Assembly: GCA_965216875.1 (NCBI GenBank)
Contig: OZ244207.1
Coordinates: forward strand, 4,960,001 to 5,024,000
Reading direction: 5' to 3'
Origin: Rubripirellula sp.
GTDB lineage: Bacteria; Planctomycetota; Planctomycetia; Pirellulales; Pirellulaceae
Length of the DNA stretch: 64,000 bases
Within the stretch, counting starts at the first letter, position 1; every line of letters starts with the position of its first letter. Made by a program: the position numbers. Positions 39,001 to 45,000 of this stretch are shown piece after piece.

Positions 39001-42000
39001 AAATGGCCGGTACCACATGGTTCGTACCACATGTCTGGTACCACATGGTGCGGGGCGATCCCGTTGAAAGCAGCCACCACAAACGGCTCGCCCCGTTTCA
39101 CCATTCATCCGACACCCTCTTTCTCTTTCGAATAGCAACTTTCGTTTCGCGCCGCTTTGCGTGAAGCGACAACCGAATAGGACGCGCAGCGTGACGTGCG
39201 TCCTTCGCCGCGAACCTTGTGGTGAGAGCCCTCGCCACAAGGTTCTTTTTGATCCTGCGGCGTTCTTTTTGATCCTGCGGCGCAATGTCCCCTTCGAGCC
39301 TGGAACGTATTCGGGCCAGCGAAACGTGCTGGTAATACGCTAGACTGTCGCCTTTGACCAGAATCAGAATCTGTCTTCAGGGCGCGGCATGGACGCAGCA
39401 AACTCACCGCACATCGTGATCGTCGGCGCCGGTATGAGTGGGCTTTGCTTGGCGATTCAGTTGAAGCGTGCCGGCTTTCACAACATCACTCTGTTGGAAG
39501 CCTCCAGCGAAGTTGGCGGCACATGGAACAAGAACACGTACCCCAACGCGGGTTGCGACGTTCCTTCGTACCTCTATTCCTATTCGTTTGCGTCGAATCA
39601 TTGCTGGTCGATGAAGTACGCGCGCCAGCCCGAGATCCTTGACTATTTCCGGCAATGCGCCGAGCGATTCGATGTCCGGCGATCTATAAGATTCGAGACG
39701 ATGGTCGAATCGGCGACCTTTGATGAAGCGACGGGACGTTGGAAAGTACGGACCGATGCAGGCGACGAAATTGTGGCTGACGTCTTCGTGAGTGCCGTTG
39801 GCCAACTCAACCGTCCCGCGATTCCGTCGTTTCAATCGGCAGACGTGTTTGAGGGCGAAGCGTGGCACAGTGCCCAATGGAATCACGACTACGAGCTTGC
39901 AGGCAAGAACGTTGCCGTGGTCGGAAACGGTGCCAGCGCCATTCAATTCATGCCAATCATCGCCGAGCAATGCAAGAAAGTGGTGTTGTTTCAACGCACC
40001 GCAAGCTGGATCCATCCACTCCACAACTACCGTTACCCCAAGTGGGCGCAGCGATGTATGCGGTGGATACCCTTTGCGGCCAAATTACACCGACTCTCTA
40101 TCTTCCTGAGTTGCGAGTGGCGAATCGTTGCGTTCCGCGAAGGGAGCAAATTGAACAAGGAATACGCGCGTTGGTTGCGCCGCCAAATGCGAAGACGACT
40201 GCCCAATGAAGATTGGGAAAAACTGATTCCCACCTATGCACCAGGGTGCAAACGCATCCTCTTGTCGAGCGACTACCTCGAAACACTTTCTCGCGACGAT
40301 GTCGAAGTCGTCCTCGATCCGATTACCGGTTTCACCAAAGACCAGATTGTGACCGGTGAATCGAGTTACGATGTCGATGCGGTGATCTACGCAACAGGAT
40401 TTCGCGCGACCGAATTCTTGCAACCCATGACCATCCGCGGCCGCGGCGGCAAAACACTCGAGCAAGAATGGAAAGCCCGGCCCAAGGCATACCTCGGTCT
40501 TGCTGTGCCGGAGTTCCCGAACCTGTTCATGTTGTACGGTCCCAACACGAACCTCGGGCACAACTCGATCATCTATATGGTCGAGCAACAAGTCAACTTC
40601 ATCATCAAGTGCCTCAAACGCATGCGAAACCGATCGGCCAACACGATCGAAGTTCGCCGCGAAGCACTTGATCAATACGATGCTCAGGTGCAGTCGGAAC
40701 TTGCCTCATCGGTTTGGGCCGGCGACTGCACGAACTGGTACAAGTCAGCCGATGGAACGATCCCCAATAACTGGTGGGGATCGGCGATGGCCTATCGCCG
40801 CCGACTCAAGCGTCCTCGGTTCGATAACTTCAAGTTTGGAACAGCAAAGGACGCTGCCGCCAGCGGCGAGGGTTAGGGCAGTAGGAACCTTATCGGCGAG
40901 TCACTTGATCTCAACCGTCTGGCGAAGCTGAGCTGGGGGCAAACAAAAGGTGTCACGACACACTTCGTAGTCGACCAAGACACGCAACCTCGTTGTCGCG
41001 GCAACGTCATCAACCCGGACTTTCCGACTGAATTGCGCGATCGCTTGGTAGATCTTTTCTTGTGGATTTTGCCTCGAAGGCTGGCCCTTTGAACGGGTCC
41101 ACTTTCCCAGCGGTGCGACACCGCCTGGCAAGTCGAACTTCAGTCGCACTGGAACATGGGCGCCGCCTTCAGGAACTTCCGAGTAAAGGTGCCATCCCGG
41201 TTTGATGGAGATCGTCACCTTCACGTCGTAGACGCCCGGCTGATCCTCAACCGGATCGGCGACCGTCACCATGCTTAACTGGTCCGTCGAAACCTTGTCG
41301 TCAGTCTCGAAGGTGTCCACCTTTTCTTCAGGCTTGACGTCTTTCTCAGGCTTTGCGTCCGGTGATTCTGCCGCTGAGCCCGCGGACGAAACCGCGTGCT
41401 TGGGCGCATCTGGATTCCGTCGGAAGTACCAAACTTGACTGATACGAGATTCCTTTTCGATGAACTCTTTGTTCCGCTCGCTCAGCTTTTCGAACCTACC
41501 TTGAAATGGCTTCATCGCCTCTTCGAAGGCCTCTTGATCGTAGTCCCCGGCCTCAAACTTCTTGGCAAACTCTTTTTGTACCGCTTGGCTTTCCGCCGTC
41601 AGGGCTTCAATCGCCTGCCGCACTTCTTCCTGGGCGACTTTTTCTTCGTCGGTCATCTCGCGCAGGTGATAGACGTCTGAGTAGTCGCCAACGATCAAGT
41701 CGAGCCAACCATCGTTGTCATAGTCAACAACGCAGATCTGGCTTCGAACGCCCAGTGCCGCTTCGTCGTCCTTGCCAAGGTATTGCATCTTGAACTTTGA
41801 TTCCGAACCAGCTGCGATCAGTGGTCGGTACGCTTCGAACTTTGGCTCACCTGTTGAACCTTGCGTCACGTTGCGATACCAGCCAACTGCGCCGTCACCC
41901 GAACCGACGACCAAGTCCCATTTGCCGTCGTTGTCCCAATCAGCAGCAACGGGCGCAGCGTGCATGTTGACGTGCAAGGGTTCCTCACCAACGTTCACTT

Positions 42001-45000
42001 GGATCGCGTCGACCGAGTACTTCGGTGTTTCGCGCGTGCCGATGTTCGTGCGCAAAAACAAGTCGCCCGAGAACGAACCTATCAAAACGTCGAGATCGCC
42101 GTCGCCATCCCAATCGACGGTCGTCGGCCAGCTTCCAAAGGTCGCGACTCGCAACGTGATTGAATCGGTATCACCAGAGTTCTGCTTCTCTTCGTCAAGC
42201 TCATTCCACTTGGCAAGCTCGACCGGATGGTGGACCAGTTCGATTCCTGACTCGTCACGAATCTTTTCGACTTCGGCATACTTGCCATCACCCAAACCGC
42301 GAAACAGATAGATGTCGCCGGGGTCGTACGAACCGCTGATCATGTCGAGCGTGCCGTCGTTGTCGTAGTCCACAAACTGTGGACTTGACGCGATGCATCA
42401 GTAAACCGGTGTCTTGGCATCGACACCACCTGCTTGAAGTTTGCCTTTGGACGTGTACTCAGGCTTTTCGTCGTTGGCCGTGTTTTCGAAGAACCAAAAG
42501 AAGCCTGGAAAATCCCCCACCAACAGATCGCGGTCACCATCACCATCGACGTCCGCCACGCAGGGTCCAGCGTGAGCAATGTTTGACAATTGACCGATGT
42601 CGATCGGCTTGCCGTCCGCTTGGATGCGAACTCCTTTGTCTAGATCGCCGACCACTCGATCTTTCGTCAAGTCCTGCTCGCCGGCGATCGCCGTTGGAAG
42701 CGCCAGCAGCCCCATCAACAGCGTGCATGAACCACGCCCCACCTTCCTCAATAACCGACAACACATTTAGGTCATCTCCCACGTGCGTGTTGCAAGAAAC
42801 GGAATTCCCACCAGAAGAAATTGTACCGGGCGCACGGCCAGCACGCTCGAATCGCTAGGAGCGACCCACTCCGATCTCGAGTACGCGGTTTTCGGAGGCC
42901 GAGGTCTCGATCAGCGCGGCGACTTGGGTCGCCAAATGGACATCGCCCCAGGTGATGGGGAAGGGTGTTCCGGCGAGGATTGCTTTGGCAAATTCGTGCA
43001 AAAGAGAATCCTCGGCATGCTCATCGTCGCCATTCGATGCGGCGAGCTCAGGTCCCGTCTTGCCCGGAACGTTTTGCCCCTGAACCTTTTGACCCTGTCC
43101 TTTTTCATCAAAGAGTTGGAAACGACGTTGGCTATCGACTTGAGCCGTAGCCTGAGTGCCCACCAGCGTGAGCGAATTGCATGCTTCGCCCGGAAACTTT
43201 GTGCAGGTGTCGATCAATGCCGTCGCCCCCGATGCAAAATCGAGATGTGCCTGAGCCAACCCATCTCGCAAAACGCCATAGACGCTCGAGGGTACAGAGC
43301 CGATCAACCACATCACCAAATCGAGTTGCTCAGCCAACCCTTGTTTCGGAGATTGTTGAGTGTTCGCCCATGCGTGAATCCGGATCAAGCGAGGTTCGCC
43401 GAGCTCGCCCATAAGGAGTGCCTTTTTGAGCTGAACCATCGCCGGCTCAAACCGCAACATCATCGCCGGCATCGAACGACCACTCGAGCCCATCACGGAG
43501 ATCATGTCTGGCTCAACCAGAAAGGGATCGATTGTCAATTGATGCCCGCCTCGTTGAATCATTCCCAAGTGTTCCAGCGGCGATTCCGTGACAACCGCTC
43601 GAGCCGAATCGAGATCGGTCTGAGCAGCGATCAAGCGATTCGTTGCCGCGGCCTTTTGGAGTCGTTCGCCACGATCATCTTGAACGCCAACCCAGATCGC
43701 AACTTGGCGAGTTGGATTCGAAGCGTGTTGCATTTCCCTGGGATCCATCTCGCTCAATGGTGCTCGCGAAAAGTGAAGGCGACCGCTTGATGAATGCGGC
43801 GGGAGCTTATCTTACTTCAAGGTAGGGATTGATGGTTTGCGCCTTTTCGACGCCCTTGGACGTGACCTGATACCGCCCCACTTGGATGGAAACATAGCGC
43901 AGGCTCGCACACTTCGCGAGCTCGAACAAACCTTCGTCCGTGACGTTGGGCGATTCGATAATGAGGGTCTCAAGTTTTGGGGATTGGCCGAGGTGCTTGA
44001 GCCCTTCGTCACTCACCGCCACTTTGCCCAGGTAGAGTGAGGTCAGCGAGGGAATCCTGGACAAATGCAAACACGCTTGATCACCGAGTGATGGCGTATT
44101 GCGTATTTTGAGTTCTTTGAGTTCGGGCAGTTTCTGCAGGTGGATGAGGTATCGCCCCTTGATCGCTTCGGAGATCAACTCCACTTCTTTCAGCTCGGGG
44201 CAATGGGCCAGGTAAGGCAACCCCGAGCCGGTCATCAATTCCGATTGAAAATTGAGTCGCTGTAAATTCGGCAAGGCTTCAAACGCTTGCATGCCGTGAT
44301 CCGTAATCGTTGACTTTCGTGTCAGCAGGTACTCGAGTTGTGGGAACTGATTCAGTTTTTGAAATTGTCGATCGTCAAGTGACGCTGAGACAGATTCGAA
44401 TGCCGTGACATTCGGCAGCGGCTCATCAAGTTTCCAGATCGGAGCGTGGGCGACCTTGCCACGAACGGAGATGCTTTTCAACTTGGTGAGTGCTTGCAGA
44501 GGCGTCAGGTCCAAGGTGCGCTGAATCGCTTCAATCTGAACGGTTTCCAGTTGAGGCATCGACAGCATGTCGGTGATCGACCCTTGCCCCGAAAAGGGCG
44601 TTTGCCAGCGAGTGTCATTGTCAAACAGGCTGCCATGACCGTTGACGCGCATCGAAACGCCGGGATAGCGAGCCTGCAGTTGGGCAAGACCACCGCGAGT
44701 CACGGGGCAGGGCGTGATGACCAAACGCCTGAAACCCGCCGGCAACTTGAGGCCAACAAGCTCATCATCAGACAATTTCGGATCATCGACAATGAGCTCT
44801 TTCAATCCGCTCAACTCTGCAATGCGACCAAGCTGATGCGGTGCGATACGTTCGAGCCACAAGCCTTCGATTCCGCGGAGCGCGGCGACTTCGTCCAAAT
44901 CCCACGACACCTTTCCTGACGATTCAAGCTCAGGCATCACCGACGGTGGACCAGCGGTGTGCAGGTCGTACATTCGACCACGCGTGCCCAACGGTGTGAG

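What a model noticed while it worked through the whole genome (the two positions that open the first line are those of the whole stretch)
40901..42766. New selenoprotein family: secreted VCBS/FG-GAP repeat protein with a Tyr-Sec-Cys motif and a DsbD_N-like tail
Genes g03820 (122 aa) and g03819 (490 aa) are one 621-aa gene on the minus strand. Its in-frame TGA (codon 123) encodes selenocysteine in a vicinal U-C pair (..TPVY-U-C-IASSPQFVD..) at the edge of an FG-GAP/VCBS repeat. The protein has a signal peptide and ends in a DsbD_N-like (PF11412) domain. It defines a selenoprotein family, common in Planctomycetota, that annotation pipelines cut at the TGA.
Evidence so far: Read through the TGA, the frame is open for 621 aa. 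All 3 homologues found in 30 other Pirellulaceae genomes (3 genera, 35-46% id) have exactly one in-frame TGA, at the same aligned position, W/Y-U-C. All four genes carry a hairpin 17 nt after the TGA (GTCCACA-GTT-TGTGGAC here). One of them has a compensatory change, CCACA/TGTGG to CCGCA/TGCGG, as expected of a bacterial SECIS. Six full-length database homologues (568-608 aa) have Cys at that place: IY-C-C-IGSSP. Most other database entries (about 470-490 aa, 79% cover) start just after the TGA, so they are truncated calls. selA, selB, a selD-like gene and tRNA-Sec are present.
(Added by a program. Inside this text positions count along the whole contig: contig position 4,960,001 is position 1 of the stretch shown here. 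"Call 12" and the like, gene names such as g00115 and contig names such as C1 are that model's own, and its searches are not shown. The text may have been shortened before it was handed on; [...] marks where a part breaks off. The agent that wrote the report below was given it as the finding of a first reader that could run no searches.)

Follow-up and report, generated by a model that had tools for sequence, protein, structure and literature searches.

The report
Secreted beta-propeller selenoprotein with DsbD-like tail
The two neighbouring "genes" are one gene for an exported propeller-shaped protein whose internal stop codon almost certainly encodes selenocysteine next to a cysteine, a widespread Planctomycetota protein family that gene callers cut in two and that selenoprotein catalogues do not list.

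Summary
Observation confirmed. Window 40901-42766 (-) is one 621-codon frame with a single internal TGA (codon 123, context Y-U-C-I-A-S-S-P-Q-F-V-D). In 70 distinct homologous genes the TGA sits in the same column before an invariant Cys; 18 others, and 65 of 68 full-length database proteins, have Cys-Cys. A hairpin (UCCACA-GUU-UGUGGA) 12-14 nt after the UGA is complete in 66 of 70 TGA forms and in 0 of 18 Cys forms, held by fixed synonymous codons (Val GTG 69/69, Pro CCA 66/69). The genome has selB-selA-selD, tRNA-Sec and three ordinary Prx-type TGA genes with hairpins of the same geometry. 55 of 57 family genomes with a TGA form have selA. The protein has a signal peptide, a five-repeat FG-GAP propeller and a C-terminal domain that folds like DsbD-alpha and keeps its Cys pair (49 of 50). 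Best reading: a periplasmic Sec-Cys (selenenylsulfide) redox protein fed by a built-in DsbD-type relay; the substrate is unknown. The family is not in a 2026 catalogue of 119 families. A 2016 supplementary table lists unanalysed "FG-GAP" candidates that may be the same. This scan has found the family before on other genomes (e1-2105329, e1-1109919, e1-3213932, e1-2221377, e1-4647296, e1-2105772, e1-4524025).

The parts
40901..42766 (-). Whole gene: 621 codons plus terminal TGA stop (40901-40903). Annotated as two ORFs of 122 aa and 490 aa.
42680..42766 (-). Signal peptide, residues 1-29 (MCCRLLRKVGRGSCTLLMGLLALPTAIAG): basic N-end, hydrophobic core, A-I-A before the likely cut.
   Evidence: Sequence and hydropathy. 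AF2 pLDDT is below 50 for residues 1-31. No signal-peptide predictor was run.
42398..42400 (-). In-frame TGA, codon 123, read as selenocysteine.
42395..42397 (-). TGC, Cys124, the vicinal partner of Sec123. Invariant in 31 of 31 aligned frames.
42367..42385 (-). SECIS-like hairpin AGUCCACA-GUU-UGUGGACU inside codons S-P-Q-F-V-D-Y. The conserved 5-bp core is at 42369-42383.
41423..42658 (-). FG-GAP/VCBS beta-propeller, residues 37-448. It has five D-x-[DN]-x-D-G motifs (G at 77, 138, 223, 281, 353). A helical hairpin (residues 373-433) precedes the closing strands 436-448.
41303..41383 (-). Low-confidence linker, residues 462-488.
40907..41278 (-). DsbD_N-like (DsbD-alpha-like) immunoglobulin-type domain, residues 497-620.
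   Evidence: Pfam PF11412. AF2 of the tail alone has pLDDT 89.7. Best Foldseek matches are solved nDsbD structures.
40943..40960 (-). C603-R-D-T-F-C608, the Cys pair of the tail in Y-E-V-C-x4-C-L-P-P.
   Evidence: conserved in 49 of 50 tail-bearing rows

Best explanation
One gene encodes an exported selenoprotein. Shown by comparison: the UGA at codon 123 is a conserved coding position, U in most Planctomycetota members and Cys in the rest, and it is followed by a hairpin found only in the TGA forms. Inferred from the standard bacterial pathway: SelB carrying Sec-tRNA(Sec) binds that hairpin and inserts selenocysteine. The protein is then exported through the Sec pathway. Its five-repeat FG-GAP propeller carries the vicinal Sec123-Cys124 pair just before the inner strand of blade 2. 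By analogy with integrin-type propellers this is near the mouth of the central channel. Inferred mechanism: Sec123-Cys124 cycles between a selenenylsulfide and the selenol/thiol form and acts on a still unknown periplasmic oxidant or disulfide. The C-terminal DsbD-alpha-like domain, with its conserved C603-x4-C608 pair, takes reducing equivalents from the thioredoxin-like domain of the cell's single membrane DsbD and passes them to the Sec-Cys centre. Tail-less relatives of about 450 aa would use DsbD's own alpha domain. My odds: real Sec codon about 0.93; redox-active Sec-Cys centre about 0.6; tail acting as its electron relay about 0.5.
For: The frame is open for 621 codons with one internal TGA. 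27 of 31 homologous frames from 30 loci have TGA in the same column, always followed by Cys; the other 4 have Cys-Cys. With more loci there are 70 distinct TGA sites and 18 Cys sites. 65 of 68 site-spanning database proteins have C-C, and 52 of 121 rows start just after the site. By my hand count of the listed rows, 110 of 112 phylum-level matches that span residue 123 hold at least one in-frame TGA.

Hairpin: the five core pairs are formed in 36-37 of 37 sequences and in 66 of 70 TGA forms against 0 of 18 Cys forms. Where the residues P..V-D are the same, Pro is CCA in 66/69 against 0/8 and Val is GTG in 69/69 against 2/8. Loop letters G30 and U32 are invariant. Compensatory CCGCA/UGCGG occurs in L028 and CACGG/CGUG in L027 and others.

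Machinery: selD, selA and selB are clustered at G000:C1:325282-330621. tRNA-Sec is found by ARAGORN and by Rfam RF01852 at 71.5 bits. Three AhpC/TSA-type genes of the same genome have one in-frame TGA at T-x-x-U or U-x-x-C sites, with hairpins starting 16-19 nt from the U of UGA. Ours starts at nt 16.

Co-occurrence (hand cross-tabulation): 55 of 57 genomes with a TGA form have selA, against 219 of 301 overall. The 2 exceptions are MAGs that are 76% and 82% complete. 4 of 7 genomes with only a Cys form lack selA.

Tail: Pfam DsbD_N is above its cut-off. The Cys pair is kept in 49 of 50 rows. The fold is nearest to solved nDsbD (6dps, 6dnv, 1jpe, 1l6p, 3pfu) and ScsB-N (6c29), with target-normalised TM 0.52-0.62. 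The tail occurs on both U-C and C-C forms. The genome has only one other DsbD_N domain, in a canonical 912-aa DsbD with DsbD_N, DsbD_TM and Thioredoxin_7.
Against: There is no proteomic or 75Se evidence, and no RNA run is on record (one search is a blank, not evidence). The hairpin alone is not unusually stable (z = -1.4). Covariation is modest because the core hardly varies: pairs with a change on both sides number 5 against a shuffled mean of 3.7, reached by 87 of 500 shuffles. The lower helices of the single-sequence fold are not conserved. The TGA forms are kin, and the Cys forms come partly from other lineages with other codon habits, so the codon contrast overstates independence.

The function is inferred only. 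No conserved neighbour gene was found. There was no match to any NCBIfam model. I could not obtain model coordinates, so the distances between Sec123/Cys124, Cys603/Cys608 and the conserved His269 are unmeasured. A vicinal Sec-Cys pair could bind a soft metal rather than turn over. Most family members lack the tail.
Confidence: 0.6

Rival explanations
1. Real selenoprotein, but the Sec-Cys pair is a binding site for a soft metal or metalloid (Cu, Hg, Cd, As, Se). It may act together with conserved His residues on the propeller face. The protein would then sequester, sense or hand over the metal instead of catalysing thiol/selenol redox turnover.
For: Vicinal C-U or C-C motifs in several catalogued selenoproteins are metal-linked: MerB-like SaoL, HgcA, MbdU and the CopZ-type 'GxUC' family in Table 1 of PMC13188914. 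His269 is kept in 26 of 31 frames, and His65 in 17 of 31 with Tyr in 11. ScsB-type DsbD_N domains, which are copper-stress related as I recall, are among the fold matches (6c29).
Against: The fused DsbD_N domain keeps its redox Cys pair in 49 of 50 rows. That domain's only known job is electron delivery to thiol-disulfide partners (established knowledge of DsbD). No metal-resistance neighbours were seen.
Confidence: 0.2
2. Real selenoprotein, but non-catalytic. It would be a surface or periplasmic FG-GAP adhesion or scaffold protein in which the Sec-Cys (or Cys-Cys) bond is a structural or allosteric switch.
For: FG-GAP propellers are best known as binding modules; integrin alpha, CRTAC1 and PVL lectin are the nearest folds. 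There is no enzyme-family signal.
Against: Sec is costly and is almost always at redox or catalytic sites (review PMC13188914, section 7). Strict conservation of the pair and the fusion to a redox relay domain argue for chemistry at the site.
Confidence: 0.12
3. The UGA is read through without selenocysteine, by near-cognate Trp/Cys/Arg insertion helped by the hairpin. Alternatively, termination at codon 123 is the main outcome.
For: Downstream hairpins can stimulate read-through in general. No direct evidence of Se insertion exists here.
Against: TGA forms go with selA (55 of 57). The aligned residue in non-TGA forms is Cys, not Trp or Arg. The hairpin's geometry and G-containing loop match those of ordinary Prx-type Sec genes in the same genome.
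Confidence: 0.04
4. Pseudogene, or two independent genes split by a genuine stop.
For: Public annotation calls two ORFs.
Against: The same single TGA at the same column occurs in 70 distinct genes at 30-60% identity, with both halves conserved in one frame. The 490-aa ORF would start inside a propeller blade. The sequence is unchanged in 4 runs.
Confidence: 0.02

Closest known systems
Cys-Cys members of the same family ('IYCCIGSSP', named VCBS repeat-containing or FG-GAP-like repeat-containing protein in databases), e.g. P0047, P0046, P0084
   Same: Same propeller, same conserved site, and some have the same DsbD_N tail, at 33-42% identity over 93-97% of the length.
   Different: Cys instead of Sec. 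No hairpin and different synonymous codons at P-Q-F-V. Several occur in genomes without selA.
[quoted passage not shown] 2016, PLoS One (PMC4807772; I read passages of the main text, supplement file 12 in full and passages of file 14)
   Same: Planctomycete genes split at an in-frame TGA and annotated as two genes, with FG-GAP repeats. bSECISearch was positive for 3 of 4.
   Different: They are listed without analysis. The aligned residue in their best hit is Gly, not Cys. They are named for an ASPIC/UnbV domain that Pfam does not find here.
Canonical bacterial Sec decoding (E. coli fdhF type: UGA plus an in-frame SECIS hairpin bound by SelB; bSECIS consensus recalled from Zhang and Gladyshev 2005)
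   Same: UGA followed at 12-14 nt by a short stem-loop with conserved G and U in the apical loop. selA, selB, selD and tRNA-Sec are present.
   Different: A very short, nearly invariant 5-8 bp stem with a 3-5 nt loop. No bulged U was identified. SelB binding is untested.
DsbD alpha domain (nDsbD; PDB 1L6P, 1JPE, 6DPS) and the ScsB N-terminal domain (6C29)
   Same: Pfam PF11412 above cut-off, nearest predicted fold, and a conserved Cys pair in a ..C-x4-C-L-P-P motif.
   Different: Here it is the C-terminal tail of a soluble propeller protein, not the N-terminus of a membrane reductase. The spacing is C-x4-C. The E. coli spacing of C-x5-C is recalled, not tested.
Vicinal redox pairs: the Gly-Cys-Sec-Gly selenenylsulfide of mammalian thioredoxin reductase, and the Cys103-Cys104 ring at the propeller axis of PQQ methanol dehydrogenase (both recalled, no call)
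   Same: Adjacent chalcogen residues able to form an eight-membered redox ring. In methanol dehydrogenase the ring also sits in a beta-propeller.
   Different: The order is Sec-Cys, not Cys-Sec. The protein is exported. No flavin or PQQ is indicated, and there is no homology.
FG-GAP propellers: integrin alpha, CRTAC1 (9etn), PVL lectin (2bwm)
   Same: Repeat type and fold.
   Different: Five repeats instead of seven. A Sec-Cys site, a helical hairpin insert and a DsbD_N tail. TM scores are low (0.2-0.3) for the whole multi-domain model.

Membership tests
Bacterial selenoprotein gene (UGA + SECIS, SelB-dependent) | In-frame UGA conserved at one column among homologues | tested here: met
   27 of 31 frames; 70 distinct TGA sites
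Bacterial selenoprotein gene (UGA + SECIS, SelB-dependent) | Cys-containing homologues aligned to the UGA | tested here: met
   18 Cys sites in loci; 65 of 68 site-spanning database proteins have C-C
Bacterial selenoprotein gene (UGA + SECIS, SelB-dependent) | Stem-loop shortly after the UGA with G in the apical loop (consensus recalled) | tested here: met
   The core is paired in 66 of 70 TGA forms and 0 of 18 Cys forms. G30 and U32 are invariant. The geometry matches three Prx-type Sec genes of the genome. Single-sequence stability is unremarkable.
Bacterial selenoprotein gene (UGA + SECIS, SelB-dependent) | selA, selB, selD and tRNA-Sec in the genome | tested here: met
Bacterial selenoprotein gene (UGA + SECIS, SelB-dependent) | Selenium actually present in the protein | not testable with these tools
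   No proteomic data; no RNA run on record
Catalogued prokaryotic selenoprotein families (Table 1 of PMC13188914, 119 entries; NCBIfam selenoprotein models) | Match to a listed family, domain or NCBIfam model | tested here: not met
   The only NCBIfam hit was noise (E 0.066, 11.6 bits against a cut-off of 700). No FG-GAP, VCBS or propeller entry appears in the table as read.
FG-GAP / VCBS beta-propeller (PF13517, PF01839) | Pfam score above the gathering cut-off; propeller fold | tested here: met
   79.9 bits against 26.9 and 34.3 against 22.1. AF2 pLDDT 88.3. Integrin alpha, CRTAC1 and PVL are the best folds. Five D-x-D-x-D-G motifs.
DsbD N-terminal (alpha) domain, PF11412 | Profile match, immunoglobulin-like fold, redox Cys pair | tested here: met
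   36.7 bits against 25; nDsbD structures are the top Foldseek matches; Cys pair kept in 49 of 50 rows
DsbD membrane reductase (alpha-beta-gamma) | DsbD_TM membrane domain and C-terminal thioredoxin domain in the same protein | tested here: not met
   Pfam finds neither in this protein. They are in a separate 912-aa gene.
ASPIC/UnbV (CRTAC1-type) proteins, as the 2016 candidates were named | ASPIC/UnbV C-terminal domain | tested here: not met
   Not among the Pfam hits at E <= 0.1. CRTAC1 is only a propeller-level fold match.

The most novel reading that the evidence does not exclude
This is the founding example of an extracytoplasmic selenium redox enzyme class. An FG-GAP propeller would use a vicinal Sec-Cys selenenylsulfide at its channel mouth as the catalytic centre, flanked by conserved His269 and by His65 and Arg341 in this subfamily. 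The centre would be recharged through DsbD, with the relay domain fused on in some members. It may be the commonest selenoprotein of Planctomycetota and a main reason why the phylum keeps the Sec machinery.
Probability: 0.3. Interest if true: 0.8.

Novelty: new variant of a known kind. Interest (0 to 1): 0.62.

Why it matters
Selenoproteins are systematically mis-annotated. Here a family present in about a quarter of sampled Planctomycetota genomes, often in several copies, is cut in two in public databases and is missing from the fullest catalogue I could read. Unlike most catalogued bacterial selenoproteins it is not thioredoxin-like: it is an exported beta-propeller with an adjacent Sec-Cys pair. 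The fused DsbD-alpha domain gives a concrete, testable link between selenium use and the envelope's disulfide-reduction pathway. A profile of the family would repair hundreds of gene models. The Sec/Cys pairs and the hairpin also give a clean natural test set for bacterial SECIS prediction.

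Tried and rejected
- **Single-sequence folding:** z = -1.4, so stability alone is not evidence. The lower helices of that fold are not conserved.
- **Rfam:** no match around the site.
- **Gene neighbourhood:** the window's neighbours are unrelated: an FMO-like gene, a Gfo/Idh/MocA fragment and an LRR protein. 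Clustering ORFs over 21 loci found no shared neighbour beyond close kin. One genome (G094) has a member directly upstream of selA, an isolated case.
- **Apparent 2186-aa fusion in L056:** the upstream part is a spurious high-GC ORF. The real start looks like a lipoprotein signal.
- **The search of protein representatives:** the N-terminal 168 aa gave 11519 hits at E <= 1e-3 and 550 at E <= 1e-30. The list was swamped by giant FG-GAP repeat proteins and says nothing about family size.
- **PDB sequence search of the tail:** 0 hits. The fold search was needed instead.
- **Expression:** no RNA holder listed.
- **Complex prediction (propeller against tail):** The step was dropped, so docking of the tail on the Sec-Cys site is untested.
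- **The protein-atlas search:** A natural Cys homologue, P0047, returned only FG-GAP clusters and gave no functional lead.
- **Tree (FastTree, 103 rows = 84 frames from loci plus 19 hand-picked database Cys forms):** the window protein sits in a clade of 34 rows (33 Sec, 1 Cys) with support 100. At least 7 Sec/Cys changes are needed. The 'tail' label there is unreliable because many loci are cut, so I draw no conclusion on tail gains or losses.
- **BSepDB supplement:** it was cut when stored. The stored part has no FG-GAP or VCBS word.
- **Model coordinates:** not obtainable, so no distances were measured.

Full report
**What is in the sequence**

Under table 11 the minus strand holds two adjacent ORFs, 42398..42766 (122 aa) and 40901..42373 (490 aa). 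Reading TGA as a residue joins them into one frame of 621 codons. It has a single internal TGA at codon 123 (window 42398-42400) and a terminal TGA stop. The local text is ..AKTPVY-U-C-IASSPQFVDYDNDG...

Twelve nucleotides after the TGA starts a perfect 8-bp hairpin, AGUCCACA-GUU-UGUGGACU (window 42385-42367). Taken alone this fold is not unusual: MFE -18.3 kcal/mol, z = -1.4, and 19 of 200 shuffles fold as well. The TGA region is identical in contigs of four public DNA runs from one study, which may be the genome's own source. An assembly slip is therefore unlikely.

**Is the TGA a coding position?**

A six-frame search of 301 genomes of the same family found matches in 72. I aligned the 31 homologous frames from the 30 fetched loci. 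In 27 the TGA is in the same column, always followed by Cys and preceded by Tyr, Trp or Gly. The other 4 have Cys-Cys.

A search of 401 genomes drawn across the phylum found matches in 103 genomes from many families, with up to six matches per genome. By my hand count of the listed rows, 112 span residue 123. Of these, 110 contain at least one in-frame TGA and 2 contain none.

After fetching more loci I had 70 distinct TGA sites and 18 Cys sites.

In the protein database, 52 of the 121 rows (120 hits plus the query) begin just after the site; these are truncated calls at 79% cover. Of the 68 database proteins that span the site, 65 have Cys-Cys, mostly as I-Y-C-C-I-G-S-S-P. Source names are only 'VCBS repeat-containing', 'FG-GAP-like repeat', 'DsbD domain-containing' or 'hypothetical'.

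A pseudogene or a pair of separate genes cannot explain one stop codon held at one column across genes of 30-60% identity.

**The hairpin**

I aligned 72 nt around the site for 37 TGA forms; the alignment has no gaps.

- The five core pairs (U-C-C-A-C with G-U-G-G-A) form in 36-37 of 37 sequences.
- The sixth pair forms in 24 of 37, with three G-C replacements changed on both sides.
- The outer two pairs form in part of the set.
- Loop letters G30 and U32 are invariant.
- Overall 73% of cells are paired, against 23-48% when partners are slid.
- Covariation is modest because the core barely varies: 5 pairs have a change on both sides against a shuffled mean of 3.7, reached by 87 of 500 shuffles.
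- The three lower helices of the single-sequence fold are not conserved.

The strongest test is the contrast with the Cys forms. All five core pairs form in 66 of 70 TGA forms and in 0 of 18 Cys forms. Among genes that encode the same P..V-D residues, Pro is CCA in 66 of 69 TGA forms against 0 of 8 Cys forms (six of which use CCG). Val is GTG in 69 of 69 against 2 of 8 (six GTC). Synonymous sites are thus frozen only where a TGA precedes them.

One caveat applies. The TGA forms are related, and some Cys forms come from lineages with other codon habits.

**Sec machinery and co-occurrence**

The genome (8.26 Mb, one contig) has these components:

- selD (in a 749-aa frame), selA and selB side by side at 325282-330621;
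- tRNA-Sec at 7784436-7784530, found by ARAGORN and by Rfam RF01852 at 71.5 bits against a threshold of 47.

Three AhpC/TSA-type genes of the same genome carry one in-frame TGA at classical sites (F-T-G-G-U, H-W-U-P-H-C, C-L-T-U-P-P). Each is followed by a hairpin that starts 16-19 nt from the U of UGA, with loops GUGAG or GGUCG in two of them. The hairpin here starts at nt 16 with loop GUU.

selA is found in 219 of the same 301 family genomes. By hand cross-tabulation, 55 of 57 genomes with a TGA form have selA. The two exceptions are fragmented MAGs, 76% and 82% complete. Of seven genomes with only a Cys form, four lack selA.

**The protein**

- *N-terminus:* it looks like a Sec signal peptide, with basic residues, a hydrophobic core and A-I-A before Gly-Glu. 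AF2 gives it pLDDT below 50.
- *Pfam:* FG-GAP_3 (six stretches, 2.1e-22), FG-GAP, and DsbD_N at residues 514-614. NCBIfam has no model for it.
- *Full model:* AF2 with a 105-row alignment gives mean pLDDT 88.3 and pTM 0.78. It shows a propeller (about residues 37-368), a long helical hairpin (373-433), two closing strands (436-448), a disordered linker (462-488) and an all-beta tail (497-620).
- *Repeats:* five D-x-[DN]-x-D-G motifs mark five repeats.
- *Fold matches:* Foldseek places the propeller with integrin alpha, BBSome, CRTAC1 and PVL lectin propellers. TM scores are low because the model has several domains.
- *Position of the site:* aligning the repeats by eye on the D-G motif puts Sec123-Cys124 at -15/-14, just before the 'FG' position that opens the inner strand of blade 2. 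The equivalent -12 positions in the other blades are His65, Gly211, His269 and Arg341. By analogy with integrin-type propellers these ring the mouth of the central channel. This is an inference: I had no coordinates to measure.
- *Conservation over 31 frames:* Cys124 31/31; Trp or Tyr122 30/31; His269 26/31; His65 17/31 (Tyr in 11); Arg341 17/31. In the W-U-C-T-S-S-T subfamily, position 211 is Cys in 12 frames.

**The tail**

Folded alone, the tail reaches pLDDT 89.7. Its best Foldseek matches are solved DsbD alpha domains. These are N. meningitidis 6dps and 6dnv, E. coli 1jpe, 1l6p and 3pfu, and the complexes 1jzd, 1vrs and 1z5y. The ScsB N-terminal domain 6c29 follows. Target-normalised TM is 0.52-0.62. 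A sequence search of the PDB found nothing.

The pair Cys603/Cys608, in Y-[EQ]-[VA]-C-x4-C-L-P-P, is kept in 49 of 50 tail-bearing rows. The tail occurs on Sec-Cys forms and on Cys-Cys forms that fall in different parts of a quick tree.

The genome has only one other DsbD_N domain. It sits in a canonical 912-aa DsbD with DsbD_N, DsbD_TM and a thioredoxin-like domain.

**How it most likely works**

*Shown by comparison:* the TGA is a conserved coding position that alternates with Cys, it is followed by a TGA-specific hairpin, and it occurs in genomes that can make Sec.

*Inferred from the standard bacterial pathway:* SelB with Sec-tRNA(Sec) binds the hairpin and inserts Sec at codon 123.

*Inferred from anatomy:* the exported propeller carries a vicinal Sec-Cys pair that can close to a selenenylsulfide. 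The fused DsbD-alpha-like domain, whose relatives only pass electrons to periplasmic thiol-disulfide partners, would reduce it. That domain would draw on the thioredoxin-like domain of the membrane DsbD. Tail-less members of about 450 aa would be ordinary DsbD clients. The oxidant or substrate is unknown.

*Rivals:*

- a soft-metal binding site;
- a non-catalytic switch in a binding protein;
- read-through without Sec;
- a pseudogene.

The last two are contradicted by the comparisons.

**Known or new?**

The fullest list I could read is Table 1 of Zhang et al. 2026 (PMC13188914; I read the outline and section 7, parts 1 and 2). It has 119 families or subfamilies and no FG-GAP, VCBS or propeller entry.

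- deep-Sep (PMC12013277, passages read): its nine new families do not include it.
- BSepDB (PMC13326102): the main text and the stored part of its supplement have no FG-GAP or VCBS word.
- Peng et al. 2016 (PMC5029168, passages): no mention of Planctomycetes.
- Full-text searches for selenoprotein with FG-GAP, with VCBS, with propeller+SECIS+bacterial, and for selenocysteine with Rhodopirellula found no description.

There is one exception. Kim et al. [quoted passage not shown] The SECIS was found for three, and Gly is the aligned residue in the best hit. The table gives no further analysis, and no passage I retrieved from the main text or supplementary file 14 mentions these candidates. They may well be this family, but I could not compare sequences.

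This scan has reported the same family on other genomes, including the DsbD-tailed form. There were no earlier notes for this genome.

**Verdict**

This is a real, widespread, mis-annotated selenoprotein family with canonical decoding. It has an unusual fold, an unusual vicinal Sec-Cys motif and, in this member, a built-in DsbD-type relay domain. I rate it a new variant of a known kind, with interest 0.62.

Noticed in passing
G000:C1:3282034-3282109 (-), outside the window (locus L141 235-310): A tRNA with anticodon CUA (amber-reading). ARAGORN labels it 'Pyl', and Rfam scores it as an ordinary tRNA at 60 bits. Several distant homologues' matches also showed a TAG inside the match (e.g. G323, G363, G593). 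That may only be the tail-less genes' own stop.
   Followed up: partly
G000:C1:3442059-3442132 (+) (locus L142 160-233): ARAGORN calls a tRNA with a four-base anticodon (tttc, eight-base loop). Rfam gives no match at gathering score, so it may be a false call.
   Followed up: partly
G000:C1:325282-330621 (-): selB, selA and selD lie side by side. The selD match sits in a 749-aa open frame, which suggests a fusion with another domain.
   Followed up: no
G000:C1:6090313-6090681 (-), 1772056-1772424 (+), 4481535-4481927 (-): Three AhpC/TSA-type genes with one in-frame TGA each (F-T-G-G-U-T-K-E-C, H-W-U-P-H-C, C-L-T-U-P-P) and downstream hairpins. They are probably ordinary Prx-type selenoproteins that annotation would split.
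   Followed up: partly
G000:C1:7806927 onward (+): A paralogue of about 440 aa without TGA. It has Cys at the Sec column but Leu at the next position (V-P-S-G-C-L-V-G-F-T-P-C-V-V-D-F), so it has a single Cys plus a second Cys eight residues later. The next gene is sulfatase-like.
   Followed up: partly
L052 (G094:C18:44000-60000), member at 8065-9252 (-), selA at 6611-7972 (-): In one genome of the family a TGA-form member lies directly upstream of selA on the same strand. I did not see this in the other genomes I compared by hand.
   Followed up: partly
alignment of 31 frames, column of residue 211: In the W-U-C-T-S-S-T subfamily (tail-less, about 450 aa) the 'G' of the blade-3 FG position is Cys in 12 of 31 frames. 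It could be a third Cys near the Sec-Cys site.
   Followed up: no
window 33375-35939 (+): An 854-aa ORF with weak cytochrome c and HEAT-repeat matches; it has no evident link to the finding.
   Followed up: no
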